Made by a program: the position numbers and the translations under genes. DNA of 64,000 nt from Torpedo marmorata (lineage: Eukaryota), in NCBI GenBank assembly GCA_977017645.1, contig OZ360256.1, positions 10,726,001 to 10,790,000 of the forward strand, given 5' to 3'. Positions 4,601 through 62,124 of this stretch are shown here, one piece after another. Within the stretch, counting starts at the first letter, position 1; every line of letters begins with the position of its first letter. The notes under the pieces were generated by a model, which did no database searches, was not told where the DNA came from, and was given only the letters and a program-made list of their open reading frames with translations.

Positions 4601-7600
4601 CTCCTGATCCCCTTCCTCCATTTCTTTCTGTTAGCATTCTCTGCTCATGTTCACTCCAGAAGCTCACGTGTAACGCTTTTTTTCTCCCATTCGCTCTCCC
4701 TCCTCTTCCCTCTCTCCCTCTCCTTCACTCTCCCCTTCACATTTTCTCTCTCCCCTCCCCTATCTCCCCTTAACGTCTTTTGTCTCCCTCCTTCACCATC
4801 TCTTCCTCTACCCTCTATCTTCCCCTCCCCTTTTCTCTCCCCATCCCCACCTCTACCCCTCCCCCATCCCCTCTCTCCCTCCCCACCCCTTCTCTCTGCC
4901 CACCTCTCCCGCCCTGCCTCTCCCGCCCCGCCCTCTCTCCGTCCCCCTCTCTTCCTCCCCGCCTCTCTCTCTTTCCTTCCGTCTCCCTCTCTCGTTCCCC
5001 TCTCCTCCTCCCCGCCTCTCCCTTTCTCCATCCCCCTCTCCTCCTCCCCGTCTCTCCCTCTCTCTGTCCCCCTCTCCTCCCCGCCTCTCCGTCTCCCTCT
5101 CCTCCTCCCCCTCTCCCCACCTCTCTGTCCCCATCTCCCCCCACTTCTACCCCTTCCCCAACCCCCTCCCTTTCTCTCCCTCCCCTTCACTCCTCCCCCT
5201 CTCCCCCTCCCAACACCTCCCTCACCCCTTCCTTTTTTTCTCTCTCCCCATCCCTCTCTTCCCCACCCCCACTCCCCCAGGTCGGACCGACACGGATCGG
5301 TTCAGCTCGGCGATGTTCCGCTTCCACCTGGAGCTGTGGGTGTGGGAGGAGGTCGTTGCAGTGGGAGGGAGGAGCCCTGCGGTGGCCGGTCACTCCATGA
5401 TCTTCCACCCCGCCTCCCGTATGCTGCTGGTCCATGGAGGTCACCGGATCTCCCCACGGTGAGGCTCGTCACAGTGTCCCCGCGGCGAGGCTCGTCACGG
5501 TTTCCCGCGGCGAGGCTCGTCACGGTTTCCCGCGGCGAGGCTCGTCACCGTATCCCGCGGCGAGGCTCGTCACGGTTTCCCGCGGCGAGGCTCGTCACCG
5601 TATCCCTGCGGCGAGGGTCACCGTATCCCTGCGGCGAGGGTCACCGTATCCCCGCGACGAGGCTCGTCACCGTATATCCGCGGCGAGGCTCGTCACCGTA
5701 TCCCCGCGACGAGGTTCGTGACCGTATCCCCACGGCGAGGGTCGTCACGGTATACCCCGCAGCGAGGCTCGTCACCGTATCCCTGCGGCGAGGCTCGTCA
5801 CCATATCTCTGCGGCGAGGGTTGTCACGGTGTACCCTGCAGCGAGGCTCGACACAGTATCCCCGCGGTGAGGCTCGTCACCGTATCCCCACGGCGAGGGT
5901 TGTCACCGTAACCCCGTGGCGAGGGTCGTCACGGTGTTGCCCGCGGCGAGGCTCGACACCGTATCCCCGCGGCGAGGGTTGTCACGGTGTACCCCGCAGC
6001 GAGGCTCGACACCGTATCCCCGCGGCGAGGCTCGTCACCGTATCCCCGCGGCGAGGGCCGTCACCATATTGCCCGCGGCGAGGGTCGTCACCGTATCGCC
6101 CGCGGCGAGGCTCGACACCATATCCCCGTGGCGAGGGTCGTCACGGTGTACCCTGCAGCGAGGCTCGACACTGTATCTCCGCGGCGAGGGTCATCACCGT
6201 ATCGCCCGCGGCGAGGCTCGACACCGTATCCCCGTGGCGAGGGTCGTCACGGTGTTGCCCGCGGCGAGGCTTGACACCGTCTCCCCGCGGCGAGGGTCGT
6301 CATGGTGTACCCCGCAGCGAGGCTTGACACCGTATCCCCGCGGCGAGGCTCGTCACCGTATCCCCACGGCGAGGGTCGTCACGGTGTTGCCCGCGGCGAG
6401 GCTCGTCACCGTATCCCCGCGGCGATGGTCGTCACCGTATCCCCGTGGCGTGGCTCGTCACCGTATCCCCGCGACGAGGGTCGTCACCGTATCCCCGCGA
6501 CGAGGGTCGTCACCGTATCCCCGCGACGAGGGTCGTCACCGTATCCCCGCAGCGTGGCTCGTCACCGGGACCCCGGTGGTGGGGTACGTGCAGTCTTTCT
6601 CACCCCATTATAGGAGGATGTGGAGGCTTCACAGAGGGTGCAGATGTTCCCTGGATTGGAAGGTGTGGGCGATGGAGAGAGGTTGGAGTTTGTTTTCTCT
6701 GGAGTCAGTGGTGAAGGAGGCAAATGCAATGCTGGCATTCATTTCAAAAGGAATAGAATACGGGAGCAGGGATGTGATGTGATCACAATATGATTGAAGT
6801 GAAACATGACATTCTGCAGATGCTGCGATTGTAGTAACAAGACACAGAAACGCTGGAGAAACTCAGCCAGTCTCGCAGTGTCCATAGCAGGTAAAGGTGT
6901 ATTACTGACATTTCAGGCTTGAACCCTTCTTCAAGGTCTAAGCAAAGAACAGGAGGCGTCAGAATAAAGAGTGAAGACTGGCCGGGGAGGAGTCCAGACC
7001 AACAAAAGGTGTGAATTGGATATGATAAGAGGAAAGGTGAGAATTGGTGTTGGCTCTATGAAAGGAGACAGAGGGAAAAGGGAAGAGAGACAGAGCTGGG
7101 AGAAAGGCGATGGGGGGAAGAAGGGAGGTTGAACGGAAACCGGAGAAGTCCATCCGGTTGGAGGGTACCCGGACGGAAGATGAGGTGTTGTTCCTCCAAT
7201 TTGTGGGTGGTCTCAGTCTGGCAGTGCATGAGACCATGGGCAGACATGTCGGCAAGGGAATGGGACGGAGAATTGAAATGGGTGGCCACTGGGAGATCCA
7301 CGCTGTTGCAGCGGACAGAGCCGAGGTGCTCAAAGCGATCTCCCAGTCTGCACCCAGTCTCTCCGATGTAGAGGAGACCACAACAGGAGCAGCGGATGCA
7401 GTAGACGACCCCTGCAGATTCACAAGTGAGGTGTTGCTTCACTTGGAAGGACTGTTTGGGGTGATGAGCTTTTATAAGGCATTGGTGAGACCTCACTTGG
7501 AGTATTATGAGCAGTTTTGGGCTCCTCATTTAAGAAAGGATGTGCTGACGTTGGAGAGGGTTCAGAGGAAGTTCACAAGAATGATTCTGGGAATGAAAGG

Positions 7601-42962: not shown

Positions 42963-45900
42963 TGTGTGTGTGTGTGTGTTACAGTAACCCCCGCCTGCCT
43001 CTCCCCCAGGGTCGGAGGGACGTGTGTGTGTGTGTTACAGTAACCCCCGCCTGCCTCTCCCCCAGGGTCGGAGGGACGTGTGTGTGTGTTACAGTAATCC
43101 CCGCCTGCCTCTCTCCCCCAGGGACGGAGGGACCTGTCTGTGTGGGGTGAGTGTGATAGAGTAACTCCCGCCTGCCTCTCCCCCAGGGTCGGAGGGACCT
43201 GTGTGTGTGTGTTACAGTAACTCCCTCCTGCCTCTCTCCCCCAGGGACGGAGGGACCTGTCTGTGTGGGGTGAGTGTGATACAGTAACTCCCGCCTGCCT
43301 CTCTCCCCTAGGGACGGAGGGACCTGTTACCACGAGTGTGCCGGACGTTCCCTGTTGCTGAACGTGTCCTCCTCGGCGCTGGGCTCCCTCAGGGGCAGCG
43401 GCCTCTCCCCGAGTGGCCTGACCTACTGCCTGTGGGTGCTCTCCACCTCCGACTCCCTGGAGCCTTGCCAGGTCCAGGACTCCTGTCCCGTCATCAGTAT
43501 TACCATCCACTCGGACATCCAGATCCAATGCGGGGTGAGTGTGGGGATGGCTGGGTGGGGGGGTGCCTTGGTGTAGCCGAGAGATTATTGTCATACACGT
43601 GAGTACAATGTGCGGAGGCCCCAACATTCTTCCTTGCCGCGGCAACCCTGGGATGTTAGACACAGCAACTCCACTTGTACAAATTAAATCACTGCCCCAT
43701 GCCAAGACAGAGAAAGATATCATAACTGAAATATAATGTCGGAATGTGAACGTTCATGCACTTTGGTAGAAGAAATAAACAGGCAGACTATTTTCTAAAT
43801 GGGGATAAAATTGAAAATACCCAGATATCCTGAAGGTAAACATGCAGGTTGAGATGGTGGTGAAGAAGGCAAATGCAATGCTGGCGTTCATTTCAAGAGG
43901 AATAGAATATAAGAGCAGGGATGTGACGTTGAGTCTCTGTACGGCATTGGTGAGACCTCACTTGGAGTATTGTGAGCAGTTTTGGGCTCCTCGTTTAAGA
44001 AAGGATGTGCTGATGGTGGAGAGGGTTCAGAGGAGGTTCACAAGGACGATTCCGGGAATGAAAGGGTTATATGAGCAGCGTTTGACGGTTCTTGGTCTAT
44101 ATTCGATGGATTTTAGGAGAATGAGGGGGGGTCTCATTGATGGGGAGGGGGGTGGGGGAGAAGGAGGGATGGGATGTGGGAGGGGGTGGGGTGGGGAGGG
44201 GGTGGAAGGGGAGGAGGTGAGGTAGGATGGGGTGGGTGGGGAAGGGGGTGGGTGGGGAAGGGGGTGAGGTGGGATGGGGAGGAGGTGAGGTGGGATGGGG
44301 ATGGGGAGGAGGTGGGATGGGGAGGAGGATGGGGAGAGGGATTTGGGGGTGGGATGGGGGAGTGGGGGGGAGGAAATGGGATGGGGAGTAGAGAAAGGAT
44401 GAACTGGGAGTTGGGATAGGAACCGGGGCAGGTGCGCAGTGGGCTGAATGGCCTGATCCAGTGGGTACGTCCATAAGACAGTGACACCCCTCTCCCCGTT
44501 CCCCACCCACATCCCCTTTCTCCCCCCCTCTCACACTCCCTGCCCCCTTACCCCCCTCTATCGCCATCCCCATCTCACCCCTCTTCCCAACCCCCATCCT
44601 CCTTGCCCTCATCCTCTTCTACTGTCTTCCCACCCACCTACCCCGCTACCTGTCTCCCCGCACTGCCGTCACCATCCCCCCTCTCCTTCCGCTCTCTCCC
44701 TCCCCCTTGTCCCATACACCTTCCGCCCCCGTCCCCTCTCCCTCCTCCTCTCCCCACCCCCCTCCCCACCCTCATCCGCTCCCCACCCCCTCCCCTTTCC
44801 CGCTTTCTCACCCCATCCCCCTGCCTCTCCTTTCTCTCCCCTCCTCCTCTCCCCGTCCTTCTCTCCCCCTTTCTCTCCCCCTCTCTCTCCCCCTCCCCCT
44901 CTCTCCCCCTCCACCTCTCTCCCCTCCCGCTCTCTCTCCCTCTCTCCTCTTCCCCCCCCCTCCCGCTCTCTCCCCCTCCCTCTCCTCCACCACCCCCCCT
45001 GCAGCATGACTATGTTTACGTTTACGACGGCCTCCCGGCATTCCTGACTGGCTCCCAACCGGAGAGCGGCATCCACTCTGACTCCCGGCTGCTCGGGGCC
45101 TTCTGCGGCCAAGGGGGGGTCTCTCCCGTCACCGTCTCGGCGGTCTCAGGTAGGTGGGGGGGGCGGGGGACCGCGAGGAGGGTGGAGGTTTGTGTGGGGG
45201 GCCAGTCCGCGTGGGGTGGAGTTCTGTCCCCTTCACCCTGTCTTTCTGTTCCGGGGAGTGGTCCGTCTCCCATCATCTTCCCCATCCCTCTGTTCCAGGG
45301 GACGGTCCGTCCCCCATCCCCGTCTCTGTTCCGGGGGCGGTCCGTCCCTTTGTTCCAGTGGATGGTCCATCCCCCTTCACCTTCCCCATCCTTTGTTCCA
45401 GTGGATGGTCCATCCCCCTTCACCTTCCCCGTCTCTCAGTTCCAGGGGGTGGTCCATCCCGCTTCACCTTCCCCGTCTCTGTTCCAGGGGGTGGTCCATC
45501 CCCCTTCATCTTCCCCGTCTCTCTGTTCCAGGGGGCGGTCCGTCCCCCTTCATCTTCCCCGTCTCTCTGTTCCAGGGGGCGGTCCGTCCCCCTTCACCGT
45601 CCCTTTGTTCCAGTGGATGATCCATCCACCTTCACCTCCCCCGTCTCTCTGTACCAGGGGTTGGTCCGTCCCCCATCACCCTCCCCATTTCCCTTCATCC
45701 TCCCCGTTTCCCTTCACCCTCCCCGTCTCTCATTTCCAGGGGCTTGTCCGTCCCCCTACACCCTCCCCCGTTTCTCTGTTCCAGGGGGTGTTCCGTCCCC
45801 ACTCACCTTCCCCGTCTCTCCATCCCAGGGGCTGGTCCGTCCCCCTTCACCCTCCCCTGTCTCTCTGTTCCAGGGGGTGTTCCGTCCCCCTTCACCCTCC

Positions 45901-51900: not shown

Positions 51901-54900
51901 TTTCTCCCCCTGACCCAGACTCTCTCCCCCTGACCCGGGACTCTCTCCCCCTGACCCGGGACTCTCTCCCCCTGACCCGAACTCTCGCCCCCTGAACTAG
52001 GACTCTCTCCCCCTGACTCGAACTCTCTCCCCTTGACGGACTCTCTCACCCTGATCCCGGACTCTCTCCACCTGACCCCGGACTCTCTCCCCTTGACCCG
52101 GACTCTCTCCCCCTGACCCAGACTCTCTCCCCCTGACTCGAACTCTCTCCCCCTGACGGACTCTCTCACCCTCACCCGGACTCTCTCCACCTGACCCCGG
52201 ACTCTTTCCCCTGACTCGGGACTCTCTTCCCCTGACCCGGACTCTCGCCCCCTGACCCGGACTCTCTCCCCCTGACCCAGTACTCTCTCCCCCTGACCCA
52301 GTACTCTCTCCCCCTGACCCAGGACTCTCTCCCCCTGACCCGGGACTCTCTCCCCCTGACCCGGGACTCTCTCCCCCTGACCCGGGATTTTCTCCCCCTG
52401 ACCAGGACTCTCTCCCCCTGACTCAAACTCTTTCCCCCTGACCCGGACTCTCTTCCCCCTGACCCGGACTCTCTCCCCCTGACCCAGACTCTCTCCCCCT
52501 GACCCGGACTCTCTCCCCCTGACCCAGACTCTCCTCCTGACCCAGTCTCTCTCCCCCTGACCCAGACTCTCTCCCCCTGACCCAGACTCTCTCCCCCTGA
52601 CCCGGAATCTCTCTGCCTGACCCGGACTCTCTCTACCTGACCGGGACTCTCTCCCCCTGACCCAGACTCTCTCCCCCTGACCCAGACTCTCTCCGTCCTG
52701 ACCCGGACTCTCTCCCCTTGACTCAGAGTCTCTCCCTCCTGGACTCTCTCCCCCTGACTCGGACTCTCTCCCCCTGACTCGGACTCTCTCACCCGGACTC
52801 TCTCCACCTGACCTGGAATCTCTCTACCTGACCCAGACTCTCTCCGTCCTGACCCAGACTCTCTCCCCCTGACCCGGAATCTCTACCTGACCCCGGACTC
52901 TCTCCCCCTGACTCGAACTCTTTCCCCCTGACCCGGACTCTCTTCCCCCTGACCCGGACTCTCTTCCCCCTGACCCGGACTCTCTTCCCCCTGACCCGGA
53001 CTCTCTTCCCCCTGACCCGGACTCTCTCCCCCTGACCCGGACTCTCTCCCCCTGACCCGGACTCTCTCCCCCTGACCCAGACTTTCTCCCCCTGACCCAG
53101 TACTCTCTCCCCCTGACCCAGGACTCTCTCCCCCTGACCCAGCCTCTCTCCCCCTGACCCGGGACTCTCTCCCCCTGACCCGGACTCTCTCCCCCTGACT
53201 CGAACTCTTTCCCCCTGACCCGGACTCTCTTCCCCCTGACCCGAACTCTCTCCCCATGACCCGGACTCTCTCCCCCTGACCCAGACTTTCTCCCCCTGAC
53301 CCAGACTCTCTCCCCCTGACCCGGGACTCTCTCCCCCTGACCCGGGACTCTCTCCCCCTGACCCGGACTCTCGCCCCCTGAACTAGGACTCTCTCCCCCT
53401 GACTCGAACTCTCTCCCCCTGACGGACTCTCTCACCCTCACCCGGACTCTCTCCACCTGACCCCGGACTCTCTCCCCCTGACTCGGGACTCTCTTCCCCC
53501 TGACCCGGGACTCTCTCCCCCTGACACCTGAACTCTCTCCCCCTGTGGACCCTGTCCCCGGACTCTCTCCCCCTGACTCGGACTCTCCCCCTGACTCGGG
53601 ACTCTCTTCCCCTGACCCGGACTCTCTTCCCCCTGACCCGGGACTCTCTCCCCCTGACACCTGAACTCTCTCCCCCTGTGGACCCTGTCCCCGGACTCTC
53701 TCCCCCTGACCCGGCACTCTCTCCCCCTGCGGACCCTGACCCGGACTCTCTCCCCCTGACCCGGCACTCTCTCCCCCTGCGGACCCTGACCCGGGACTCT
53801 CTCCCGCTGACACAGACTCTCTCCCCCTGGCCCAGGTTTCTCCCCCTGACCCGGGACTCTCTTCCCCTAACTTTGAAGTCGCTCCCCCTGCGGACCCTAA
53901 CCCTCGGACTCTCTCCCCCTGACCCGAGACTCTCTCCCCCTGCGGACCCTGACCCGGGACTCTCTCCCCCTGTCCTGAACTCTCTCCCCCTGCGGACCCT
54001 AACCCCGGACTCTCTCCCCCTGACCTGGGACTCTCTCCCCCTGACCTGGGACTCTCTCCCCTGCAGGCAGATCTTGTTCCTCCTGTGGTGGGGCACACCC
54101 TGACGCTGACCCGGGACGCCACGCTGCTGCTGATTGGCGGATATTCCCCCCACAACGGGTTCAACGACAAGTTGCTGGAGTACGGCCTGGCCTCTGGAAC
54201 CTGGAGAGTGGCGCAGACCACCGGCACAGCCCCCACTGGTAGGGGAGGGGGCTCACTGAGGGGTCCCCCTGGGGAGGGGAGGCGGGGAGGGTTGCTGGTG
54301 AGGGGTGGTGGCAAAGGGCGGGGCGAGGGCGGTAGTGAGGGGGCGGGTGGGCGAGGGGCGGTGGCGGGGCAAGGGGTAGTGGTGAGGTGTCGAGGCGAGG
54401 GGGGCTGCGAGGGGCGGTTGGGAGAGGGGCGAGGGGAGGCGAGGCGAGGGGTCGCGGTGGGGCGAGGGGTTACGATGGGGTGAGGGGTCGCGGTGAGGAG
54501 TCATGGCGGGGTGAGGGGTCGCGGAGAGGTGAGGGGCGATGGGGTGAGGGGTCGAGACGGGGTGAGGGGTAATGGTACGGTTCCTTGGGGAGGTTCTGGT
54601 TGAACTACTCCTCCCTCCCGTCCTGTCTGACGAAGCCTCCTCTTCGGCAGGTCTGTACGGGCACACGTCCGTCTACCACGGCCACACCGACGCCGTCTAC
54701 GTCTTCGGCGGTTACCGCTTCCACCTGGAGACCGTGTCCGCCTCGGCCGAGCTCTACGGCCTGTATTTGCCAACCCTCACCTGGAGCCTGATCGCCCCCA
54801 CAAGGGGCCCTAAGGTAACGGCTTCGGGACTCACCGGACCCCTGTCCCCAGGACTCCCCTGACCTCAGGACCCCTGCCCACCCTCACCTGGAGACTGATC

Positions 54901-57900
54901 GCCCCGCATGCAGCCCCAACGTAATGGCCCCCAGGTCCCCCGACTCCCTGTCCCCCGGTACTCCCCGGACCCTTGTCCCCGGGTCCCCCGACTCCCCGTT
55001 CCCCAGTACTCCCCGGGTCCCGTGACTCCCCGTCCCCCAGTAATCCCCGGATCCCTACTCCCGGGACCCCCGAAGGGAAGTGAGTGCAGTTACTATTTCA
55101 AGGGAGAAGGTGCTCAGAAAGCTGAATGGTCTAAGAGTGGATAAGTCTCCCAGATCAGATGGATTGCACCCTCATGTCCTGAAAGAGATAGCGGTAGAGA
55201 TTGTGAACGAATTGGTAATGATCTTTCAGGAATCAACAGATTCTGGTATGGTCCCGGAAGACTGGAAAATCACAAATATCACCCCACCATTCAAGAAGTG
55301 GGGGAGGCAGCAGAAAGGAAATTATAGCCCAGTTAGCCTGACGTCAGTGGTTGGGAAGATGTTGGAGTCTCTTGTCAAGAATGAGGTCATGGAGCACTTG
55401 GAGACACAGGACAGGATAGGTCAAACCCACCATGGTTTCCTGAAGGGAAGATCTTGCCTGACAAGCCTATTGGAATTCCTTGAGGAAGGGACAAGCAGGC
55501 TGGATAAGGGAGATGCAGTGGATGTTGTGTACAGTAAACTCCTGGTATTTGGCACTTATGGGGATTGGTAGATGCCGGATAAGTGTTTTTTCCCTTTGCT
55601 TGAGGTTTGGCGAAATAACAGCAAGGAGTGCCAATTTTAATCTTTCGTATTTTTTACCTATTTATTCTCATCGATTTTTTTTGTGCCGATTGCTTGAATT
55701 CCAGGATACCAGGGATTTTCCTGTATTTGGATTTTCAGAAGGCATTTGACAAGGTGCCGCACATGAGGCTACTTAACAAGAGCCCGTGGTATAACAGGAA
55801 ACATACGAGTGTGGGCTGATTGGCAGGAAGCAGAGAGTGGGAATACAGGGATCATATTCAGGTTGGCTGCCAGTCGCTAGTGGTGTTCCACAGGGTCGGT
55901 GTTGGGGCCGCTTCTCTTTATGTTGTATATTAATGACTTGGATTGTGGAATGAATGGCTTTGTGGCCAAGTTTGCAGACGATGCGAAGGCAGGTGGAGGA
56001 GCAGGTAGTGTTGAGGAAACGGAGTCTGCAGAAGGACGGAGAGATGAGGAGAATGGGCAGAGAAGTGAGTGGCAAATGAAATACAATGTCGGAAAGTGTA
56101 CGGTCACGCACTTTGGTGGAAAAAATAAACGGGCAGAAACCCCCCCCCCCAGATCGCTGATCACAGGATCTCCGTCCCTGAGACCCCCAGACCCTCACGG
56201 CCGGTGCCGAGACCCCTGGGGCCGGTGCCCAGACCCTCAGACTCCCGCGGCCGGTGCTGAGGTTGCCCTGACCCTGTGCTCTGTTTCCAGCCCCCCTCCC
56301 GGTTCTTCCACGCGGCAGGGCTCCTGCACAACACGGTGGTGGTGGTGGGTGGCAGGTCCCAGCACCGAGACTTCACCCACAACGTCCTTCTCTACCACAT
56401 CGGCACCAACACCTGGGTCAGGACCCATCCCACAGGTATGGGGGGGAGGGACGATGAACAGGGGGCCAGTAGGATGGGGACAGGAGGAAGGGGGAGATGG
56501 GAGACGGGGAAGGGGTGGGGAGGGGACGAGGTGAGGGGAGAGGAGGAAGGGGAGGGGGTCGAGTGGGGAGTGGACGGGGAGGAGTGGGGAGGGAACGGGG
56601 TGAGGGGTCGGGGAGTAGTGGGGAGGGAACGGGGTGAGGGGTCGGGGAGTAGTGGGGAGGGGACGGGGTGAGGGGTCGGGGAGGAGTGGGGAGGGGACGG
56701 GTGAGGGGTTGGGGAGGAGTGGTGAGGGGATGGGGTGAGGGGTCGGGGAGGTGGGGAGGGACCCCATTCAAACTCAAACACTCCCCTTGAAACGAATTCC
56801 AACTCTCTCTCTCTCCTTCCTCATTCTATCTTTCCCCCTCCCCTCTTTCCCCTCTCCCCTATCTCCTCCTCTCTCTCCCTCTCTCTCTCCCCCTCTCTCT
56901 CTCTCTCTCCCCCTCTCTCTCCTCCCCTCTCTCCCCCTCCCTTCCTCTCTCTCCTCCCCCTCTCCCCTCTCTATCCCCCTCTCTCTATCCCCCCTCTCTC
57001 CTCCCCTCTCTCCCCCTTCCCCCCTCCCTCTCCCCCTCTCTTTCCCCCTCTCTTTTCCCCCTCTCTTTTCCCCTCTCTCTCCCCCCTATCTCCCCCCTCT
57101 CTCTCCCCCTATCTCCCCCCTCTCTCTCCCCCTCTCGCCACCCTCCCCTCTCCTTCCCTCTCCCTCTCCCACCGCTCTTTCCCCCCACTCTCTACCCTTC
57201 TCTCCCCATCTCCCCCCCACCGCCTGCTCTCTATAGGGACGCCAGTGCTGGGGGAGCCTTTGAAAGGATCGATAGCCCAGGCAGCGGTCACCGTGGGGGA
57301 CAAGCTGTACGTGTCGGGGGGGTTCAGTGGGGTGATGCTGGGCTCCCTGGTATCTGTGTCCGTGCCCCTCAACCCGTGCCAGGTGTTCGGCAGCCCTGGA
57401 GACTGCAGCAACAGTACCGGCGGGTGTGTATGGTGTCGATCAGTGGACAATGGCAGCTGCCTGTCCATCGAGGAGGCCGACAGGTAGGGCAGCGAGCGCC
57501 GGCTCTACCGACGGGTGGACCTCACACACCCTCACTCCGTCAATCTGTTACCCATCACCTCCCACACTCACCACTCCTTTCTTCCCTCTCCCCCCTCGCT
57601 CTCACCCTCCCCTCCCTCTCCCCCTCCCCTCCCTCTCCCCCTCCCTCTCCCCTTCCCCTCCCACCCTCCCTCTCCTCCTCCCCCTCCCTCTCTCCCTTCC
57701 CCCTCCCTCCCCCCAGCAATTCCTCCCTCTCTGCGTCACTCTCTCATTCTCCATCCCTCAAACCCTCCACCCCCATCCCTCTCCGCACCTCTCTCACCCT
57801 CCATTCTCCCTCTCACTCCCCTGATACCCTCCCCTTTCTCCTGCCCATCACCTCTCCCCATCCGGGGACACTGACTCCTATGGCTGGATTCTGAACCCCC

Positions 57901-60900
57901 CCCCCCCTCTGAGGTTGGAGGGGGAGGGTTGTTGATAATCTCTCTGCATATCTGTCCTGGTGCAACCCCTACCTCTTCCCCCCCCTTATTTCCCTGCTCT
58001 GACCCCCCTCTCCACTCCCCTCCCCATCCCCCTTAACCCCTCCCTCCTCTCCCCTTCTTCCACCCCCCTGTCCTCCTCCCACTCTCCCCCTCCACATGCA
58101 TCTCCCACCCCTCCCGATTCCCTCACCTCCCTCATCCCCCCGTCTCCTGCCCGTGACCCCTCTCCCTCTCCTTCCCCATGCCCATCCCAGCTTCCCCCAT
58201 GCCCCTCCACTCCCCCACCCCCTACTCCCTCACCCCCCCTTAACTCACCCCTTACCCCCACTTTCTCCTGCCCAACCCCTCCCCCTCCCCTCCCCATTTC
58301 TCCTCTCCATGCCCCACTCTCCCCTCCCCGCATGCTCCTCCCTCTCATCTCCATATCCCCTCCCCTATCCTTTCTCTGCAGGTGGCCCCGAAACACGGAC
58401 CCCTCCCCCTGACCCATGCCCCCTCTCTCTGCAGATTACCCCGGGATGTGGACCCCTCCCCCTGACCCATGCCCCCTCTCTCTGCAGATTACCCCGGGAT
58501 GTGGACCCCTCCCCCTGACCCATGCCCCCTCTCTCTGCAGATTACCCCGAGACGCGGACCCCTCCCCCTGACCCATGCCCCCTCTCTCTGCAGATTACCC
58601 CGGAATGTGGACCCCTCCCCCTGACCCATGCCCCCTCTCTCTGCAGATTACCCCGGGATGTGGACCCCTCCCCCTGTGACCCGTGGCCCCGACTCTCGGA
58701 GCCCTGCCGACATTTGAAGACGTGCAGCGAGTGTTTGGCCCTTCACCCCCAGATCGCGGGGCAGACACAGCGGCAGGTGAGTGACAGCCCGTGACCTCTC
58801 ACCCCACAGAGCCACGCCCCGTGACCTCTCACCCCACAGAGCCCCACCCCACAACCTCGCCCCGCCCCGTGACGTCTCACACCACAGAGCCCCACCCAGT
58901 GACTTCTCACCTCACAGAAACCCATCCCGTGACCTCTCACACCACAGAGCCCCGCCCCACGACCTCACCCCACAGAGCCCTGCCCCACGACCCTCACCCC
59001 GCAGAGCCCTGCCCCGTGACCTCTCACCCCACAGAGCCCCGCCCCGTGACCTCACACCACAGAGCCCCGCCCCACGACCTCACCCCACAGAGCCCTGCCC
59101 CACGACCCTCACCCCGCAGAGCCCTGCCCCGTGACCTCTCACCCCACAGAGCCCCGCCCCGTGACCTCTCACACCACAGAGCCCCGCCCCACGACCTCAC
59201 CCCACAGAGCCCTGCCCCACGACCCTCACCCCACAGAGACCCACCCAGTGACTTCTCACCTCACAGAAACCCATCCCGTGACCCCTCATCCCACAGATCC
59301 GCCCTGTGACCCCTCACCCCAAAGATCCGCCCCGAGACCTCTCATCCCACAGAGACCCGCCCCACGACCTCTCACCTCACAGTGACCTCTCACCCCACTG
59401 AGACCCACAACACGACCCCTCACCCCACACAGATCCGCCCTGTGACCTCTCACCCCACAGAGGCACGCCCTGAGACTGCTGACACGGAGCCTCGTGCATA
59501 TTCGTGACACATAACCCATCCTCCCTCTCCCCCCATTCCCGGCCTCTGATTGGCTCCCTCAGTCCCGGGCTCTGATTGGCTCCTTCAGTCCCTGGCCTCT
59601 GATTGGCTCCCTCAGTCCCCAGCCTCTGATTGGCTCCCTTAATCCCCGGCCTGTGATTGGCTTCCTCAATCCCTGGCCTGTGATTGGCTCCCTCAAACCC
59701 CGGCCTGTGATTGGCTCCCTCAATCCCCAGCCTGTGATTGGCTCCCTCAGTCCCCGGCCTCTGATTGGCTCCCTCAGTCCCCGGGCTCTGATTGGCTCCC
59801 TCAGTCCCTGGCCTCTGATTGGCTCCTTCAGTCCCCAGGCTCTGATTGGCTCCCTCAGTCCCCAGCCTCTGATTGGCTCCCTCAATCCCCGGCCTGTGAT
59901 TGGCTCCCTCAATCCCCGGTCTGTGATTGGCTCCCTCAATCCCAGGCCTCTGATTGGCTCCCTCAGTCCCTGGGCTCTGATTGGCTCCCTCAGTCCCCGG
60001 CCTCTGATTGGCTCCCTCAATCCCCAGCCTGTGATTGGCTCCCTCAATCCCCGGCCTGTGATTTGCTCCCTCAATCCCCGGGCCTCTGATTGGATTCCTC
60101 AATCCTCGGGCTGTGATTGGCTCCCTGTTGCTCCGTCCGTATTGTGATTGGCTCCCTCAGTCCCTGGCCTGTGATTAGCTCCCTCAATCCCTGGCCTATG
60201 ATTGGCTCCGTTTTGCTCTGTACGGCATGTGAATACCTCCCTCATACCCCGGCCTGTGATTGGCTCTCTCAGTCCCTATCCTCTGATTGGCTACCTCAGT
60301 CTCCAGCCTCTGATTGGCTCCCTGAGTCTCCGGTCTCTGATTGGCTCCCTCTTGTGCTGTTCAGAGGTGTAAGTGGTGCACGCATTGTCCCGAGGGGGCC
60401 TGCATCAGCGCCAACGCCAGCTGCAGCAAAGAGAACGACTGCCGCATCAACCAGCGCGAGATCTTCCTCGCTGGCAACTGCACCGAGATCTCATGTGAGG
60501 CATCTGACTGCTACAAGTGTACGGCGTCCAGCAAGTGTATGTGGACCCGCCAATTCAAACGCACAGGTAAGCCCGTGTACTCGGACCTGCCCGCTTAAAC
60601 GCTCGGGTAACCTCGTGTACGCAGACCTGCCCACTCAAACGCACAGGTAGCCTCGTGTACGCAGACCTGCCCGCTCAAACGCACGGGTAAACTCGAGTAC
60701 GCGGACCTGCCCGTTCAAACACGCAGGTAAACTCGATTACGCGGACCTGCCCATTCAAACACACAGGTAAACTCGAGTAAGCGGACTTGCCCGTTCAAAC
60801 ACGCAGGTAAACTCGAGTACGCGGACTTGCCCGTTCAAACACACAGGTAAACTCGAGTACGTGGACCTGCCCATTCAAACACGCAGGTAAACTCGAGTAA

Positions 60901-62124
60901 GCGGACTTGCCCGTTCAAACACGCAGGTAAACTCGAGTACGCGGACCTGCCCATTCAAACACACAAGTAAACTCGAGTACGCGGACCTGCCCATTCAAAC
61001 ACACAAGTAAACTCGAGTACGCAGACCTGCCCGTTCAAACACGCAGGTAAACTTGAGTACGCGGACCTGCCCATTCAAACACGCAGGTAAACTCGAGAAC
61101 ACGGACCTGCCCATTCAAACACGCAGGTAAACACAAGTACGCGGACCTGCCCATTCAAACACGCAGGTAAACTGGAGTACGCAGACCTGCCCATTCAAAC
61201 ACGCAGGTAAACTCGAGTAAGCGGACCTGCCCATTCAAACACGCAGGTAAACTGGAGTACGCAGACCTGCCCATTCAAACACGCAGGTAAACTCGAGTAC
61301 GCGGACCTGCCCATTCAAACACACAAGTAAACTCGAGTACGCGGACCTGCCCATTCAAACACGCAGGTAAACTCGAGAACACGGACCTGCCCATTCAAAC
61401 ACGCAGGTAAACTCGAGAACACGGACCTGCCCATTCAAACACGCAGGTAAACACAAGTACGCGGACCTGCCCATTCAAACACGCAGGTAAACTGGAGTAC
61501 GCAGACCTGCCCATTCAAACACGCAGGTAAACTCGAGTACGCGGACCTGCCCGTTCAAACACGCAGGTAAACTCGAGTACGCAGACCTGCCCATTCAAAC
61601 ACGCAGGTAAACTCGAGTACGCGGACCTGCCCGTTCAAACACGCAGGTAAACACGAGTACGTGATCCTGCCCATTCAAACACGCAGGTAAACTCGAGTAC
61701 GCGGACCTGCCCGTTCAAACACGCAGGTAAACACGAGTACGTGATCCTGCCCATTCAAACACGCAGGTAAACTCGAGTACGCGATCCTGCCTGTTCAAAC
61801 ACGCAGGTAAACTTGAGTACGCGGACCTGCCCTTTCAAACGCGCAGGTAAACTCGAGTACGCGGACCTGCCCGTTCAAACGCACGACTGACCTGGTGCTT
61901 TGGTTCCAGGGGAGACGCGGCGCATCCTCAGCGTCAGTCCAACCTACGACTGGACCTGCTTCAGCCACTCGCTCCGCAACGTGTCCCCCATGCCCGTGGA
62001 GTCGTCGCCCCCAGCACCCTGCCCCACCCCCTGCCACCGGCTCACCGCCTGCCCCGACTGCCTGGCCTCCACCGGTGCCGACGGCGGCTGGCAGCGCTGC
62101 GTCTGGAGTTTGGCCCTGAGGCAG
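1423..62124 (+). CDS. MEGF8: MEGF8 (multiple EGF-like domains 8), partial multi-exon gene: 30 distinct exons, 9 of them present twice
   Basis: Spliced translation has MEGF8 motifs ([47 protein letters not shown]; [12 protein letters not shown]; [46 protein letters not shown]). All introns are GT-AG and exon phases join correctly. Confidence 0.96.
2020..3250. repeat. ~29-bp minisatellite GTGTGAGCAGTGTAGGAGTGTGAGGGTGG
   Basis: Direct tandem copies. Confidence 0.9.
3275..4615. repeat. ~31-bp minisatellite ACACTGATCCCCTTCCCCCACACCTGGTGTA
   Basis: Direct tandem copies. Confidence 0.9.
5281..5458 (+). CDS. MEGF8: MEGF8 exon B (kelch)
   Basis: Long pyrimidine tract + CAG; [17 protein letters not shown]...[26 protein letters not shown]; donor GTGAGG. 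Confidence 0.9.
5459..6570. repeat. ~26-bp CpG-rich minisatellite GAGGCTCGTCACCGTATCCCCGCGGC derived from the exon B donor junction
   Basis: Tandem copies align to GTCACCGGATCTCCCCACG|GTGAGGCTCGTCAC. Confidence 0.85.
6700..8030 (+). mobile_element. CR1-type LINE 3' fragment, interrupted by a Penelope element
   Basis: [23 protein letters not shown] / [39 protein letters not shown]; [16 protein letters not shown]. Confidence 0.85.
6781..7460 (-). mobile_element. Penelope-like element 3' fragment (GIY-YIG endonuclease and terminal repeat)
   Basis: [41 protein letters not shown]; degenerate hammerhead-like motif at ~6900-6940; GTGATG on both flanks. Confidence 0.85.
8305..8835. repeat. Degenerate TTCTTG(C/T)G low-complexity repeat
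   Basis: T/G/C-rich short-period repeat. Confidence 0.8.
9020..9165 (+). CDS. MEGF8: MEGF8 exon C (kelch)
   Basis: [18 protein letters not shown]...[19 protein letters not shown]; CAG / GTGAGT. Confidence 0.93.
9408..9828 (-). mobile_element. Solo LTR (421 bp), antisense to MEGF8
   Basis: TG...CA ends; GCAG TSD at 9404-9407 and 9829-9832; minus-strand TATAAAAA (9571-9578) followed by AATAAA (9467-9472). Confidence 0.8.
10373..11050 (-). mobile_element. Penelope-like insertion with inverted terminal segment and 14-bp TSD
   Basis: [24 protein letters not shown]; TTGGTTTTGCTAAC at 10359-10372 and 11051-11064; GCTGGAGAAACTCAGCAGGTCA inverted at ~10978-10999. Confidence 0.85.
10434..10474 (-). 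ncRNA. Minimal type I hammerhead-ribozyme-like motif (Penelope-associated; U at core position 3)
   Basis: Minus strand CATACT-TTGATGA-A-GGGC-TCAA-GCCC-GAAAC-GTC-GGTTATG; same motif at 22852-22892. Confidence 0.6.
11290..11486 (+). mobile_element. CR1-type LINE fragment
   Basis: [19 protein letters not shown]...[19 protein letters not shown]. Confidence 0.75.
11487..12370 (-). mobile_element. Penelope-like element 3' fragment (GIY-YIG)
   Basis: [43 protein letters not shown]; degenerate hammerhead-like motif at ~11552-11592. Confidence 0.85.
12386..12717. repeat. ~23/24-bp minisatellite TTTTGGTGTGGGGATCGTGGAGCG
   Basis: Tandem copies; also at ~24805-25138. Confidence 0.85.
12772..12897 (+). 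CDS. MEGF8: MEGF8 exon D (copy 1)
   Basis: [34 protein letters not shown]; CAG / GTGAGT. Confidence 0.92.
13618..13775 (+). CDS. MEGF8: MEGF8 exon E (copy 1, kelch)
   Basis: [35 protein letters not shown]; CAG / GTGAGT. Confidence 0.92.
14551..14658 (+). CDS. MEGF8: MEGF8 exon F (copy 1, PSI)
   Basis: [29 protein letters not shown]; CAG / GTGAGG. Confidence 0.92.
14695..16300. repeat. Degenerate GTGACGGTTCGTTGACGTGCG repeat, CpG-rich
   Basis: Tandem copies fill intron F-G; also at ~27120-28735. Confidence 0.85.
16327..16474 (+). CDS. MEGF8: MEGF8 exon G (copy 1, PSI)
   Basis: [22 protein letters not shown]...[15 protein letters not shown]; CAG / GTAACC. Confidence 0.92.
16782..16945 (+). 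CDS. MEGF8: MEGF8 exon H (copy 1)
   Basis: [18 protein letters not shown]...[19 protein letters not shown]; CAG / GTGAGT. Confidence 0.92.
17543..17734 (+). CDS. MEGF8: MEGF8 exon I (copy 1; symmetric phase 0-0, 192 nt)
   Basis: [31 protein letters not shown]...[19 protein letters not shown]; CAG / GTGAGT. Confidence 0.88.
18848..19048 (+). CDS. MEGF8: MEGF8 exon J (copy 1)
   Basis: [19 protein letters not shown]...[21 protein letters not shown]...SEMTLTWER; CAG / GTGAGT. Confidence 0.9.
19058..20120. repeat. ~33-36-bp VNTR GGAGTGTATCCCCCTGGAATACCGTGCCCCTTCCC (short allele)
   Basis: Tandem copies; the copy-2 array is 714 bp longer. Confidence 0.9.
20749..20979 (+). CDS. MEGF8: MEGF8 exon K (copy 1, PSI)
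   Basis: [33 protein letters not shown]...[15 protein letters not shown]; CAG / GTGAGT. Confidence 0.92.
21102..21217. mobile_element. 116-bp mini solo-LTR / TRIM-like insertion
   Basis: TGTCGCGG...CCGCTACA inverted ends; GATC/GACC flanks; interrupts a CAGACCC repeat; also at 34250-34365. Confidence 0.55.
21455..21567 (+). CDS. MEGF8: MEGF8 exon L (copy 1, PSI)
   Basis: [37 protein letters not shown]; CAG / GTGAGC. Confidence 0.9.
21672..21771. other. 100-N scaffold gap between the two duplicated blocks
   Basis: Exactly 100 N. Confidence 0.95.
21853..22246 (-). mobile_element. Solo LTR, copy 2 (27-bp deletion)
   Basis: Same TG...CA ends and GCAG TSD. Confidence 0.75.
22247..24788 (-). mobile_element. 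Copy 2 of the Rex-like LINE / Penelope / CR1 / Penelope cluster
   Basis: ORFs 22156-22710, 23078-23305 and 24227-24745 match those in copy 1. Confidence 0.8.
25193..25318 (+). CDS. MEGF8: MEGF8 exon D (copy 2)
   Basis: Same sequence and splice sites as 12772-12897. Confidence 0.85.
26039..26196 (+). CDS. MEGF8: MEGF8 exon E (copy 2)
   Basis: Same as 13618-13775. Confidence 0.85.
26973..27080 (+). CDS. MEGF8: MEGF8 exon F (copy 2)
   Basis: Same as 14551-14658. Confidence 0.85.
28761..28908 (+). CDS. MEGF8: MEGF8 exon G (copy 2)
   Basis: Same as 16327-16474. Confidence 0.85.
29216..29379 (+). CDS. MEGF8: MEGF8 exon H (copy 2)
   Basis: Same as 16782-16945. Confidence 0.85.
29977..30168 (+). 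CDS. MEGF8: MEGF8 exon I (copy 2)
   Basis: Same as 17543-17734. Confidence 0.85.
31282..31482 (+). CDS. MEGF8: MEGF8 exon J (copy 2)
   Basis: Same as 18848-19048. Confidence 0.85.
31492..33268. repeat. ~33-36-bp VNTR (long allele)
   Basis: Same unit as 19058-20120. Confidence 0.9.
33897..34127 (+). CDS. MEGF8: MEGF8 exon K (copy 2)
   Basis: Same as 20749-20979. Confidence 0.85.
34603..34715 (+). CDS. MEGF8: MEGF8 exon L (copy 2)
   Basis: Same as 21455-21567; continues without a gap to exon M. Confidence 0.88.
35541..35672 (+). CDS. MEGF8: MEGF8 exon M (PSI)
   Basis: [43 protein letters not shown]; CAG / GTAGCT. Confidence 0.93.
35745..37262. mobile_element. Inverted pair of Penelope-like terminal repeats with an expanded CT-rich internal tract
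   Basis: GCTGGAGAAACTCAGCAGGTCACGCAGCATC at the left end is the reverse complement of GATGCTGCGTGACCTGCTGAGGTTCTCCAGC at the right end; hammerhead-like motif in each arm. Confidence 0.75.
37487..37650 (-). mobile_element. tRNA-derived V-SINE (HE1-like), internally deleted
   Basis: V-domain GAGGAAACCGGAACACCCGGAGGAAACCCACG; minus-strand B-box GGTTCGAATC. Confidence 0.7.
37872..38175. repeat. ~28-bp repeat CTGGGCGAGCTGACCCCTGACCTTTGCC running into the exon N acceptor
   Basis: Tandem copies. Confidence 0.8.
38185..38298 (+). CDS. MEGF8: MEGF8 exon N (PSI)
   Basis: [37 protein letters not shown]; CAG / GTAGGG. Confidence 0.92.
38668..38985. repeat. ~24-31-bp repeat GACTGTCTGTGACCCCGTCTGGTGTCTGGG
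   Basis: Tandem copies. Confidence 0.8.
39017..39265 (+). CDS. MEGF8: MEGF8 exon O (calcium-binding EGF)
   Basis: CVPGDF...[50 protein letters not shown]; CAG / GTGAGT. Confidence 0.93.
39502..39686 (+). CDS. MEGF8: MEGF8 exon P (EGF / laminin-EGF)
   Basis: [26 protein letters not shown]...[10 protein letters not shown]...CDQCQ; CAG / GTAATG. Confidence 0.93.
39960..40460. mobile_element. CR1 3' fragment (+) joined to a Rex-like LINE fragment (-)
   Basis: [23 protein letters not shown] on +; [31 protein letters not shown] on -. Confidence 0.7.
40480..41430. repeat. Degenerate (TGACCCC)n repeat
   Basis: Dense CTGACCCC/ATGACCC motifs. Confidence 0.75.
41448..41658 (+). CDS. MEGF8: MEGF8 exon Q (laminin-EGF)
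   Basis: [34 protein letters not shown]...[21 protein letters not shown]; CAG / GTAAGG. Confidence 0.93.
41695..42210. repeat. ~34-bp C/A-rich repeat CCCTGTACCCCCAGCACACCGTCCCCACCCCACCA
   Basis: Tandem copies. Confidence 0.85.
42265..43311 (+). repeat. Tandem copies of the exon R acceptor junction separated by (GT)n
   Basis: About 12 x TACAGTAACYCCCGCCTGCCTCTCTCCCCCAG|GGACGGAGGGACCTGT. Confidence 0.9.
43312..43534 (+). CDS. MEGF8: MEGF8 exon R (start of second CUB)
   Basis: [25 protein letters not shown]...[10 protein letters not shown]...IQIQCG; TAG / GTGAGT. Confidence 0.92.
43730..44140 (+). mobile_element. CR1-type LINE fragment
   Basis: [45 protein letters not shown]. Confidence 0.85.
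45005..45149 (+). CDS. MEGF8: MEGF8 exon S (CUB)
   Basis: [14 protein letters not shown]...[24 protein letters not shown]; CAG / GTAGGT. Confidence 0.92.
45225..45917 (+). repeat. ~44-bp repeat copying the exon T acceptor
   Basis: CCCCTTCACCTTCCCCGTCTCTCTGTTCCAG|GGGGTG units. Confidence 0.85.
45918..46117 (+). CDS. MEGF8: MEGF8 exon T (CUB end, Cys-rich linker)
   Basis: [12 protein letters not shown]...[14 protein letters not shown]...[17 protein letters not shown]; CAG / GTGAGT. Confidence 0.9.
46139..47005. repeat. 33-bp minisatellite CCCCAGGGTCCGTCACAAAGTGTGTCCCCCTCA
   Basis: About 26 tandem copies. Confidence 0.92.
47065..47365. repeat. ~31-bp repeat CCGGTGTGCCGGGTGGGAGGGGGGAACATTC
   Basis: Tandem copies. 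Confidence 0.8.
47413..47505 (+). CDS. MEGF8: MEGF8 exon U (EGF end)
   Basis: [31 protein letters not shown]; CAG / GTAAGT. Confidence 0.9.
47890..48005 (+). CDS. MEGF8: MEGF8 exon V (kelch)
   Basis: [38 protein letters not shown]; CAG / GTGAGG. Confidence 0.9.
48380..48575 (+). CDS. MEGF8: MEGF8 exon W (kelch)
   Basis: YSVTQRLW...[12 protein letters not shown]...[30 protein letters not shown]; CAG / GTAGGG. Confidence 0.92.
48698..54062. repeat. 5.4-kb ~21-bp satellite CTGACCC(G/A)GACTCTCTCCCC with higher-order ~1.37-kb duplication
   Basis: Tandem copies; matching ORF translations at 51518 and 52883. Confidence 0.92.
54067..54238 (+). CDS. MEGF8: MEGF8 exon X (kelch)
   Basis: [13 protein letters not shown]...[27 protein letters not shown]...TAPT; CAG / GTAGGG. 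Confidence 0.92.
54651..54814 (+). CDS. MEGF8: MEGF8 exon Y (kelch)
   Basis: [27 protein letters not shown]...[12 protein letters not shown]; CAG / GTAACG. Confidence 0.93.
55075..56137 (+). mobile_element. CR1-type LINE reverse-transcriptase fragment
   Basis: [16 protein letters not shown]...PEDWK...[13 protein letters not shown]...[13 protein letters not shown]...[16 protein letters not shown]...[12 protein letters not shown]...KFADD. Confidence 0.9.
55532..55723. mobile_element. 192-bp Tc1/mariner-pogo-type MITE inside the CR1
   Basis: TA TSD; TIRs CAGTAAACTCCTGGTAT / ATACCAGGGATTTTCCTG; excision restores [12 protein letters not shown]. Confidence 0.8.
56291..56435 (+). CDS. MEGF8: MEGF8 exon Z (kelch)
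   Basis: [42 protein letters not shown]; CAG / GTATGG. Confidence 0.92.
57237..57483 (+). CDS. MEGF8: MEGF8 exon AA (kelch, PSI)
   Basis: ...[29 protein letters not shown]...CVWCRS...CLSIEEAD; TAG / GTAGGG. Confidence 0.92.
58365..58676 (+). repeat. 53-bp tandem copies of the exon AB acceptor junction
   Basis: AG ends at 58381, 58434, 58487, 58540, 58593 and 58646. Confidence 0.92.
58647..58776 (+). CDS. MEGF8: MEGF8 exon AB (PSI)
   Basis: [34 protein letters not shown]; only the last of six tandem CAG acceptors keeps the frame open; donor GTGAGT. Confidence 0.9.
58788..59465. repeat. ~28-30-bp repeat GTGACCTCTCACCCCACAGAGCCCCGCCCC
   Basis: Tandem copies. Confidence 0.85.
59538..60350. 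repeat. 27-bp repeat GGCCTCTGATTGGCTCCCTCAGTCCCC (an inverted CCAAT in nearly every unit)
   Basis: Tandem copies. Confidence 0.9.
60365..60566 (+). CDS. MEGF8: MEGF8 exon AC
   Basis: [14 protein letters not shown]...[17 protein letters not shown]...[11 protein letters not shown]; CAG / GTAAGC. Confidence 0.95.
60537..61884 (+). repeat. 40-bp tandem array of the exon AC donor junction
   Basis: GCGGACCTGCCCATTCAAACACGCAG|GTAAACTCGAGTAC at an exact 40-bp period. Confidence 0.95.
61910..62124 (+). CDS. MEGF8: MEGF8 exon AD (PSI)
   Basis: [43 protein letters not shown]...[17 protein letters not shown]; CAG / GTGAGC. Confidence 0.95.

What the first reader, a model, noticed from the sequence alone, without database searches (positions are those of the whole stretch)
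60537..61909. An intron that is almost entirely 32 decoy 5' splice sites
Seen: the 1343-nt intron AC-AD is an indel-free 40-bp array. Its unit is the last ~30 nt of the exon plus the donor, with GT recurring at 60607, 60647 ... 61847. The true donor is CAG|GTAAGC; almost all copies are CAG|GTAAAC and lack the +5 G. Reading past the true donor hits TAA at 60596-60598, so any decoy use gives a premature stop. Only ~25 nt at the 3' end (CTGAC...TTCCAG) is non-repeat. Inference: +5 G and exon definition may decide selection. The CAG|GT units also resemble recursive-splicing ratchet points or a U1 snRNP sponge.
Basis: partly seen in the sequence, partly recalled or inferred. Interest (0 to 1): 0.72.

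Follow-up and report, generated by a model that had tools for sequence, protein, structure and literature searches.

The report
Repeated splice donor in fish MEGF8
In a cartilaginous fish's MEGF8 gene, a 40-base piece covering an exon's end and its splice signal is repeated 32 more times through the next intron; the one assembled transcript available uses the first signal, so it is likely a harmless example of a repeat type already known from human and lancelet genes.

Summary
In detail: the 1343-nt MEGF8 intron (60567-61909) is a 40-bp minisatellite seeded by the exon's last 30 nt plus the donor, with 32 GT copies in exact register, all lacking +5 G, an in-frame TAA at 60596 and 25 unique nt at the 3' end. 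It is a known kind: human F7, CBS, 6-16, LMNB2, PDGF and lancelet 'mirage' arrays; this scan also noted it before on other DNA, including this genome. One public assembled transcript joins 60566 to 61910 exactly. The same transcript uses the first donor of another intron of this gene although nine identical donors follow, so position is enough and +5 G is not needed, though here it adds strength. Recursive splicing is not supported: 0 of 27 YAGGT copies have a pyrimidine tract. No sign of selection on the copies: 61% of this gene's intron bases are tandem repeat, and 5 of 28 arrays span a junction against 4.2 expected by chance. Rare decoy use with NMD, and any U1-loading effect, remain untested (one run, contigs only). 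Verdict: real, ordinary, low interest.

The parts
60365..60566 (+). MEGF8 coding exon upstream of the array (202 nt)
   Evidence: 86-88% identity to four shark MEGF8 proteins; both ends shown by the X1 contig
60537..60576 (+). Seed unit: last 30 exon nt plus first 10 intron nt
   Evidence: 31 of 40 letters match the array consensus; its peptide is conserved in homologues, so the exon is the source
60564..60572 (+). True 5' splice site CAG|GTAAGC, cut after 60566
   Evidence: X1 contig joins 60566 to 61910; best junction by homologue alignment; strongest GT site of the region
60577..61884 (+). 40-bp minisatellite: 32 full copies with GT at 60607...61847 plus a partial copy without donor
   Evidence: mean pairwise identity 89%, 20 distinct units of 32, a 158-nt exact internal repeat at 320-nt shift
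60596..60598 (+). In-frame TAA read before any copy donor
60604..60692 (+). First three copy donors (CGG|GTAACC, CAG|GTAGCC, CGG|GTAAAC), deviant edge copies
   Evidence: U1 duplex -7.3, -7.7, -7.6 kcal/mol
60774..61222 (+). Second GT register 10 nt behind the first; three sites CGA|GTAAGC at 60777, 60897, 61217
   Evidence: matrix score 3.4, U1 duplex -4.5 kcal/mol
61885..61909 (+). Unique 3' end: predicted branch point (CTGAC, A at 61890), short pyrimidine stretch, acceptor AG
   Evidence: only yTnAy word in the intron; acceptor shown by X1
61910..62124 (+). MEGF8 coding exon downstream of the array
   Evidence: 54 homologues at E<=0.001, those with names mostly MEGF8
5440..6567 (+). Comparison: 26-bp array across another donor of the same gene (5459); most copies read GC in place of GT
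42966..43327 (+). Comparison: array across an acceptor of the same gene (43311), 10 copies of the junction word upstream
58397..58676 (+). Comparison: 53-bp array across an acceptor of the same gene (58646), 5 hits of the junction word upstream

Best explanation
This is a junction-spanning minisatellite, a 40-bp piece covering the MEGF8 exon end and its donor that has been copied through the intron, and the one assembled transcript uses the first donor, likely because it is both the first site behind the exon and the strongest, which would make the array a tolerated by-product rather than a device. Shown: the array, its origin from the exon (the exon peptide is conserved in other vertebrates), the 60566-61910 junction in one transcript assembly, and first-donor use at a second array of this gene with identical copies. 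Inferred: slippage or unequal exchange made and homogenised the copies, spreading one G-to-A change at +5 along with 8 other changes; the spliceosome pairs the upstream acceptor with the first donor (202-nt exon; copies would give 242-1482 nt); rare slips to a copy include the TAA and would be cleared by NMD; the array now also serves as plain spacer, since only 35 nt of other intron sequence remain.
For: X1 contig (2732 nt, depth 9, 1 differing letter over 206) leaves the genome at the true donor and continues with the next exon. The same-length contig uses the first donor of intron 37 (L010:8976) although 9 identical CAG|GTCAGTAC follow. True donor: matrix 10.2 bits and -11.0 kcal/mol; copies 5.2 bits or less and -8.3 or weaker. 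Context: tandem repeats cover 61% of 71,336 intron bases, 24 of 38 introns are half repeat or more; junction words recur in their own intron for 5 of 38 donors and 2 of 38 acceptors; 5 of 28 arrays span a junction, 4.2 expected from random seeding, P 0.42. Exon-to-consensus changes: 1 of 9 donor columns, 8 of 31 others; at least one donor change is expected with P 0.88. Human F7 minigenes: most upstream site used even against stronger copies, and adding or deleting units had no effect (PMC1557585).
Against: RNA evidence is one run, assembled contigs, labelled RNA only by guess; contigs drop rare forms, so minor decoy use is not excluded. The copies are plausible donors: 12 of 38 real donors of this gene pair with U1 more weakly than -8.3 kcal/mol and 4 of 38 lack +5 G. 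In human 6-16 and CBS the nearest copies are used as well (as summarised in PMC1557585). The donor columns are the least variable 9-column window of the unit (8 variants, tied lowest of 40 windows); this fades once CpG columns are set aside (P 0.29). The three nearest copies are weaker than the consensus, which could be selection. The random-seeding null is crude. Outside MEGF8, 0 of 11 Pfam-supported exon candidates had junction copies, so the high rate is shown for this gene only.
Confidence: 0.85

Rival explanations
1. Unproductive-splicing rheostat: the nearest copies are used at an appreciable rate, the TAA sends those transcripts to NMD, and array length or sequence tunes MEGF8 dose.
For: Every copy use includes the TAA; copies pair with U1 as well as many real donors; human 6-16 and CBS use two nearby copies (PMC1557585); the CBS VNTR is linked to lower enzyme activity (title in the reference list of PMC2630376).
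Against: The assembled transcript uses the true donor; the nearest copies are the weakest; F7 copy number did not alter splicing; no selection signal.
Confidence: 0.08
2. U1-loading element (sponge, enhancer of the upstream donor, or guard against early cleavage): U1 binds many copies without splicing and that binding matters.
For: 26 copies form a predicted -8.3 kcal/mol duplex with this genome's U1 5' end; GT kept in 32 of 32 copies; U1 has a splicing-independent role in suppressing early polyadenylation (abstract starts of PMC3826338, PMC6946686 in the listing).
Against: 17 of 40 columns are invariant, so GT retention is not special; donor columns not more conserved than other non-CpG columns (P 0.29); each unit carries a hexamer complementary to the copy donor that is predicted to mask it; 32 sites on one pre-mRNA are few against an abundant snRNP (inference).
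Confidence: 0.04
3. Recursive splicing: each CAG|GT acts as acceptor then donor, removing the intron in 40-nt steps.
For: 27 copies read YAGGT; recursive sites occur in introns down to 0.2 kb (PMC10156609, passages).
Against: 0 of 27 meet the Y5+N0-4YAGGT motif; 25 of 27 score 1.0 bit or less on an acceptor matrix where 36 of 38 real acceptors score 4.5 or more; no yTnAy word inside the array; a 40-nt step is below the 65-nt threshold of human short introns (PMC4463651, abstract start).
Confidence: 0.02
4. Assembly artefact: the copies were multiplied by the assembler.
For: The window holds a probable false duplication at a gap elsewhere; array DNA was not checked against reads.
Against: 20 distinct units of 32 with 89% mean identity and edge-to-centre polarity; copy number could be off, existence hardly.
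Confidence: 0.01

Closest known systems
Human F7 intron 7 37-bp VNTR (Borensztajn et al. 2006, PMC1557585; parts 1-4 of 6 of the main text read)
   Same: Unit spans the exon/intron boundary, donor repeated downstream, most upstream site used.
   Different: F7: 5-9 units, 4 exon nt per unit, copies identical to the true donor. Here: 33 units, 30 exon nt per unit, copies lack +5 G, array fills 98% of the intron; length polymorphism not tested.
Human 6-16 (25 pseudo-sites), CBS intron 13 (31 bp, 15-20 units), LMNB2 (100 bp, 10-15), PDGF intron 4 (81 bp, 16-18), as summarised in the Introduction of PMC1557585; CBS nomenclature c.1444_1467+7(16_21) from passages of PMC2630376
   Same: Same layout and similar copy numbers; CBS, like this one, is mostly exon sequence (24 exon + 7 intron nt).
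   Different: 6-16 and CBS also use two nearby copies; no such use seen here in one contig. Primary papers not read.
Amphioxus 'mirage' minisatellites (Adh3, globins; PMC3087553, passages read)
   Same: Tandem duplications of both 5' and 3' exon boundaries, cryptic GT/AG signals, normal splicing by RT-PCR, edge units excluded from homogenisation.
   Different: Fewer copies in the globin cases (3-6); here a vertebrate gene with at least five such arrays.
Recursive splice sites (PMC10156609, passages read)
   Same: YAG|GT core word.
   Different: No pyrimidine tract or branch-like word before the copies; 40-nt spacing.

Membership tests
Junction-spanning minisatellite (F7/CBS/6-16 type, 'mirage') | Head-to-tail tandem array with minisatellite-size unit | tested here: met
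   Period 40, 33.5 copies, 90% matches
Junction-spanning minisatellite (F7/CBS/6-16 type, 'mirage') | First unit spans a real exon/intron boundary | tested here: met
   30 exon + 10 intron nt; junction shown by X1 contig and homologues
Junction-spanning minisatellite (F7/CBS/6-16 type, 'mirage') | Splice signal reiterated in the intron | tested here: met
   GT in 32 of 32 copies, CAG|GT in 27 of 32
Junction-spanning minisatellite (F7/CBS/6-16 type, 'mirage') | Exon-nearest site is the main one used | tested here: met
   One contig of one run; rare forms not visible
Junction-spanning minisatellite (F7/CBS/6-16 type, 'mirage') | Copy-number polymorphism (VNTR) | not testable with these tools
   One assembly; no DNA run listed; the read tool does not take long repeats
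Recursive splice sites | YAG|GT core | tested here: met
   27 sites
Recursive splice sites | Pyrimidine tract (Y5+N0-4) before the YAG | tested here: not met
   0 of 27
Recursive splice sites | Lariats or intermediate junctions at the site | not testable with these tools
   Only contigs available
U1 decoy/sponge element | Sites able to pair with U1 5' end | tested here: met
   Predicted -8.3 kcal/mol for 26 copies
U1 decoy/sponge element | Selective conservation of the U1-pairing letters | tested here: inconclusive
   Lowest-variation window overall but P 0.29 without CpG columns; copies are not independent
U1 decoy/sponge element | U1 occupancy with an effect on RNA output | not testable with these tools
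   Needs CLIP and minigene

The most novel reading that the evidence does not exclude
The array is a length-variable dose control for MEGF8: U1 loads on the copies, a measurable share of transcripts slips to them and is destroyed through the built-in TAA, so copy number and the +5 change set MEGF8 level; with at least five junction arrays (three donor-side, two acceptor-side) one transcript would be a natural panel that separates position from strength in splice-site choice.
Probability: 0.1. Interest if true: 0.55.

Novelty: new member of a known kind. Interest (0 to 1): 0.2.

Why it matters
As it stands it adds a large, clean example to a class described in human and lancelet genes. Its use is as a test bed: in one gene, one array has weakened donor copies (this one) and another has identical copies (intron 37), and the same transcript uses the first site in both, which fits a position-first rule outside mammals. 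It would matter more only if decoy use proved measurable and tied to array length, which would make a repeat polymorphism a dose control of a developmental signalling gene (MEGF8's role in Hedgehog signalling is recalled, not looked up).

Tried and rejected
PDB sequence searches with each exon gave no useful match. Run search: no holder on record as RNA; one run with a guessed RNA label; its lack of cover over the intron start is not evidence that copies are unused. Structure masking: the consensus unit holds a 6-bp stem that covers the copy donor (opening 6.6 against 4.2 kcal/mol for an array of the exon unit), but 5.8% of 400 random 9-change units do as well, and in the real sequence the true donor (3.9) lies inside the range of the copies (1.1-6.5); z -2.3 for a 291-nt piece; not adopted. 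Selection for loss of +5 G: not distinguishable from chance. Dispersed element as source: the only other genomic match was a 66% alike 36-bp array on another contig, with no Pfam match in three upstream frames; rejected, as the exon peptide is conserved. Wider survey: 1.06 Mb of the contig scanned with a home-made exon finder (25 of 35 MEGF8 donors recovered exactly; 115 candidates); of 55 candidates outside MEGF8, 11 had Pfam support and none of these had 2 or more junction copies: too few for a genome-wide rate. Dropped before counts: intron 35 (N gap) and the first copy of the duplicated exon block; five junction sets were fixed by hand, one acceptor was 1 nt off and corrected; only 4 of 38 junctions are shown by the contig, the rest rest on protein homology. 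A search for MEGF8 + splicing + tandem repeat listed 5 of 6 papers, none about this array by title or abstract start (listing only). No supplements were opened.

Full report
Observation. The window is part of a 6.2-Gb animal genome. The exon before the array is 86-88% identical to four shark MEGF8 proteins, 82% to a snake, 74% to a gar and 70% to a whale protein, and the exon after it finds 54 homologues, those with names mostly MEGF8; a cartilaginous fish is therefore likely (earlier AI notes on this genome say ray; not tested). GT stands at 60567+40k for k=0 to 32. The true donor is CAG|GTAAGC; of 32 copies 26 are CAG|GTAAAC, 3 CAA|GTAAAC and the first three are CGG|GTAACC, CAG|GTAGCC and CGG|GTAAAC; none has +5 G. 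The first in-frame stop is TAA at 60596-60598. The last 25 nt are unique and hold the only yTnAy word of the intron, its A at -20 (the branch-point pattern is recalled).

Direction of copying. The seed's 30 exon bases encode a peptide that runs on into the next exon's peptide without insertion in 19 of 54 homologues; 7 lack the search word, and most of the rest show other residues before it, as expected for single-exon calls read from genomic contigs (that reading is my inference). So the exon is old and the array came from it. The consensus differs from the seed at 9 of 40 places; mean identity among copies is 89%, with 20 distinct units, and a 158-nt exact repeat at 320-nt shift shows recent multi-unit duplication. 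Edge copies keep seed-like letters that inner copies lost, the pattern described for amphioxus mirage arrays (PMC3087553, passages). CpG columns (10 of 40) hold 45 of the 80 variant letters.

What is spliced. One public run was listed, RNA by guess, as contigs. A 2732-nt contig at depth 9 covers the exon with one differing letter and continues directly with the next exon, giving the junction 60566-61910; its other loose end is the previous exon. A contig of the same length and depth covers a later exon and leaves at L010:8976, the first donor of intron 37. Contigs show presence only, so rare use of copies is open.

Why the first donor wins. With this genome's U1 5' end the true donor pairs at -11.0 kcal/mol, the common copy at -8.3, the first three at -7.3 to -7.7; on a matrix from the gene's other 37 donors it scores 10.2 bits against 5.2 or less. 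It is thus both first and strongest. The copies are still plausible donors: 12 of 38 real donors pair more weakly than -8.3, and 4 of 38 lack +5 G. Intron 37 separates the two factors: its 27-bp array has 24 hits of the junction word, 9 identical to the true donor from -3 to +8, and the first is used. In human F7, minigenes showed the same: copies are functional, only the most upstream is used even against stronger copies short of a perfect consensus, and adding or deleting units changed nothing (PMC1557585, parts 1-4 of 6 read). I infer position first, strength second, NMD as backstop.

Is it special in its context? I mapped 39 introns by homology and kept 38. Tandem repeats cover 61% of their 71,336 bases; 24 of 38 are half repeat or more. 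The junction word recurs in its own intron for 5 of 38 donors (1, 2, 1, 26 and 24 hits) and 2 of 38 acceptors (10 and 5 hits), with at most 0.13 expected from other introns. Of 28 complex arrays 5 span a junction; a crude null that seeds units at random on repeat-collapsed introns expects 4.2 (P 0.42). Against generalising: outside MEGF8, 0 of 11 Pfam-supported exon candidates in 1.06 Mb had junction copies.

Selection on the copies. Only 1 of the 9 seed-to-consensus changes falls in the donor nine-mer; at least one is expected with P 0.88. The donor window is the least variable of 40 windows among copies (tied), which would suit a retained U1 site, but it has no CpG, and among non-CpG columns the excess vanishes (P 0.29 for variant letters, 0.59 for distinct alleles). 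The weaker first three copies could reflect selection or ordinary edge divergence; one array cannot tell.

Recursive splicing. 27 copies read YAGGT but none meets the Y5+N0-4YAGGT motif used in PMC10156609 (passages); 25 of 27 score 1.0 bit or less as acceptors while 36 of 38 real acceptors score 4.5 or more; no branch-like word lies in the array; 40 nt is below the 65-nt threshold of human short introns (PMC4463651, abstract start). The same threshold means that deleting the whole array (35 nt left) is not a clean test.

Comparison with the known. F7 intron 7, 6-16 (25 pseudo-sites), CBS intron 13, LMNB2 and PDGF intron 4 are listed as this layout in PMC1557585; CBS is written c.1444_1467+7(16_21) (PMC2630376, passages); amphioxus mirages cover both boundaries and splice normally (PMC3087553). 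PMC10078293 (passages) shows that tandem repeats can alter splicing in humans but the passages seen did not describe this layout. Earlier AI notes of this scan report the same kind in this genome (SLC24A2) and in at least 8 other genomes; these are unchecked and not counted as support. Four of four testable defining features of the junction-spanning minisatellite class are met; polymorphism is untested.

Verdict. Real, correctly described, new member of a known kind; most likely a tolerated by-product of a repeat-rich gene (0.85). Interest 0.2. The boldest open reading, a length-variable NMD rheostat for MEGF8, gets probability 0.1.

Noticed in passing
First donor used in X1.
   Followed up: partly
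window 9547-21671 versus 21966-34800, N gap at 21672-21771: About 12.4 kb with eight MEGF8 exons is present twice in tandem, 97.5% alike over 10.7 kb, on either side of a 100-N gap; probably two haplotypes assembled in series rather than a true exon duplication.
   Followed up: partly
window 42966-43327, 58397-58676 and 45342-45920: Acceptor-side arrays: 10 and 5 hits of the intron/exon junction word upstream of the mapped acceptor, some identical to it; a third array repeats a pyrimidine tract plus CAG up to the acceptor. Which acceptor is used was not checked in RNA.
   Followed up: partly
window 5440-6567: 26-bp donor-spanning array of about 43 units in which most copies have GC in place of GT.
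   Followed up: no
window 29380-29820, 38299-38530, 54768-54971: Two- to four-fold duplications of exon end plus donor at three more junctions, perhaps early stages of such arrays.
   Followed up: no
window 60577-61884: The consensus unit holds a hexamer complementary to its own donor, predicted to form a 6-bp stem over each copy; the seed in the exon lacks it. Not significant against random changes (5.8% of 400).
   Followed up: yes
L010:7535-7634 (N gap): Contig arithmetic (791 nt between two mapped points, 408 explained by two exons) suggests that a MEGF8 exon of roughly 170 nt is missing in this assembly gap.
   Followed up: partly
L005:1-2606 (G000:C48): A 36-bp array of at least 72 units whose minus strand also repeats CAG|GTAAAC; no exon shown upstream.
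   Followed up: partly
window 28897-28908 and 29204-29215: The last 10 nt of an exon are identical to the last 10 nt of the following 307-nt intron, as a duplication-born intron would show; intron position in other species not checked.
   Followed up: no
L095, L099-L101, L064, L015, L030: Neighbouring exon candidates match RPS19, a DM-domain gene, a CBL-type gene, a zinc-finger gene and a death-effector-domain gene, like the human MEGF8 neighbourhood as recalled.
   Followed up: no
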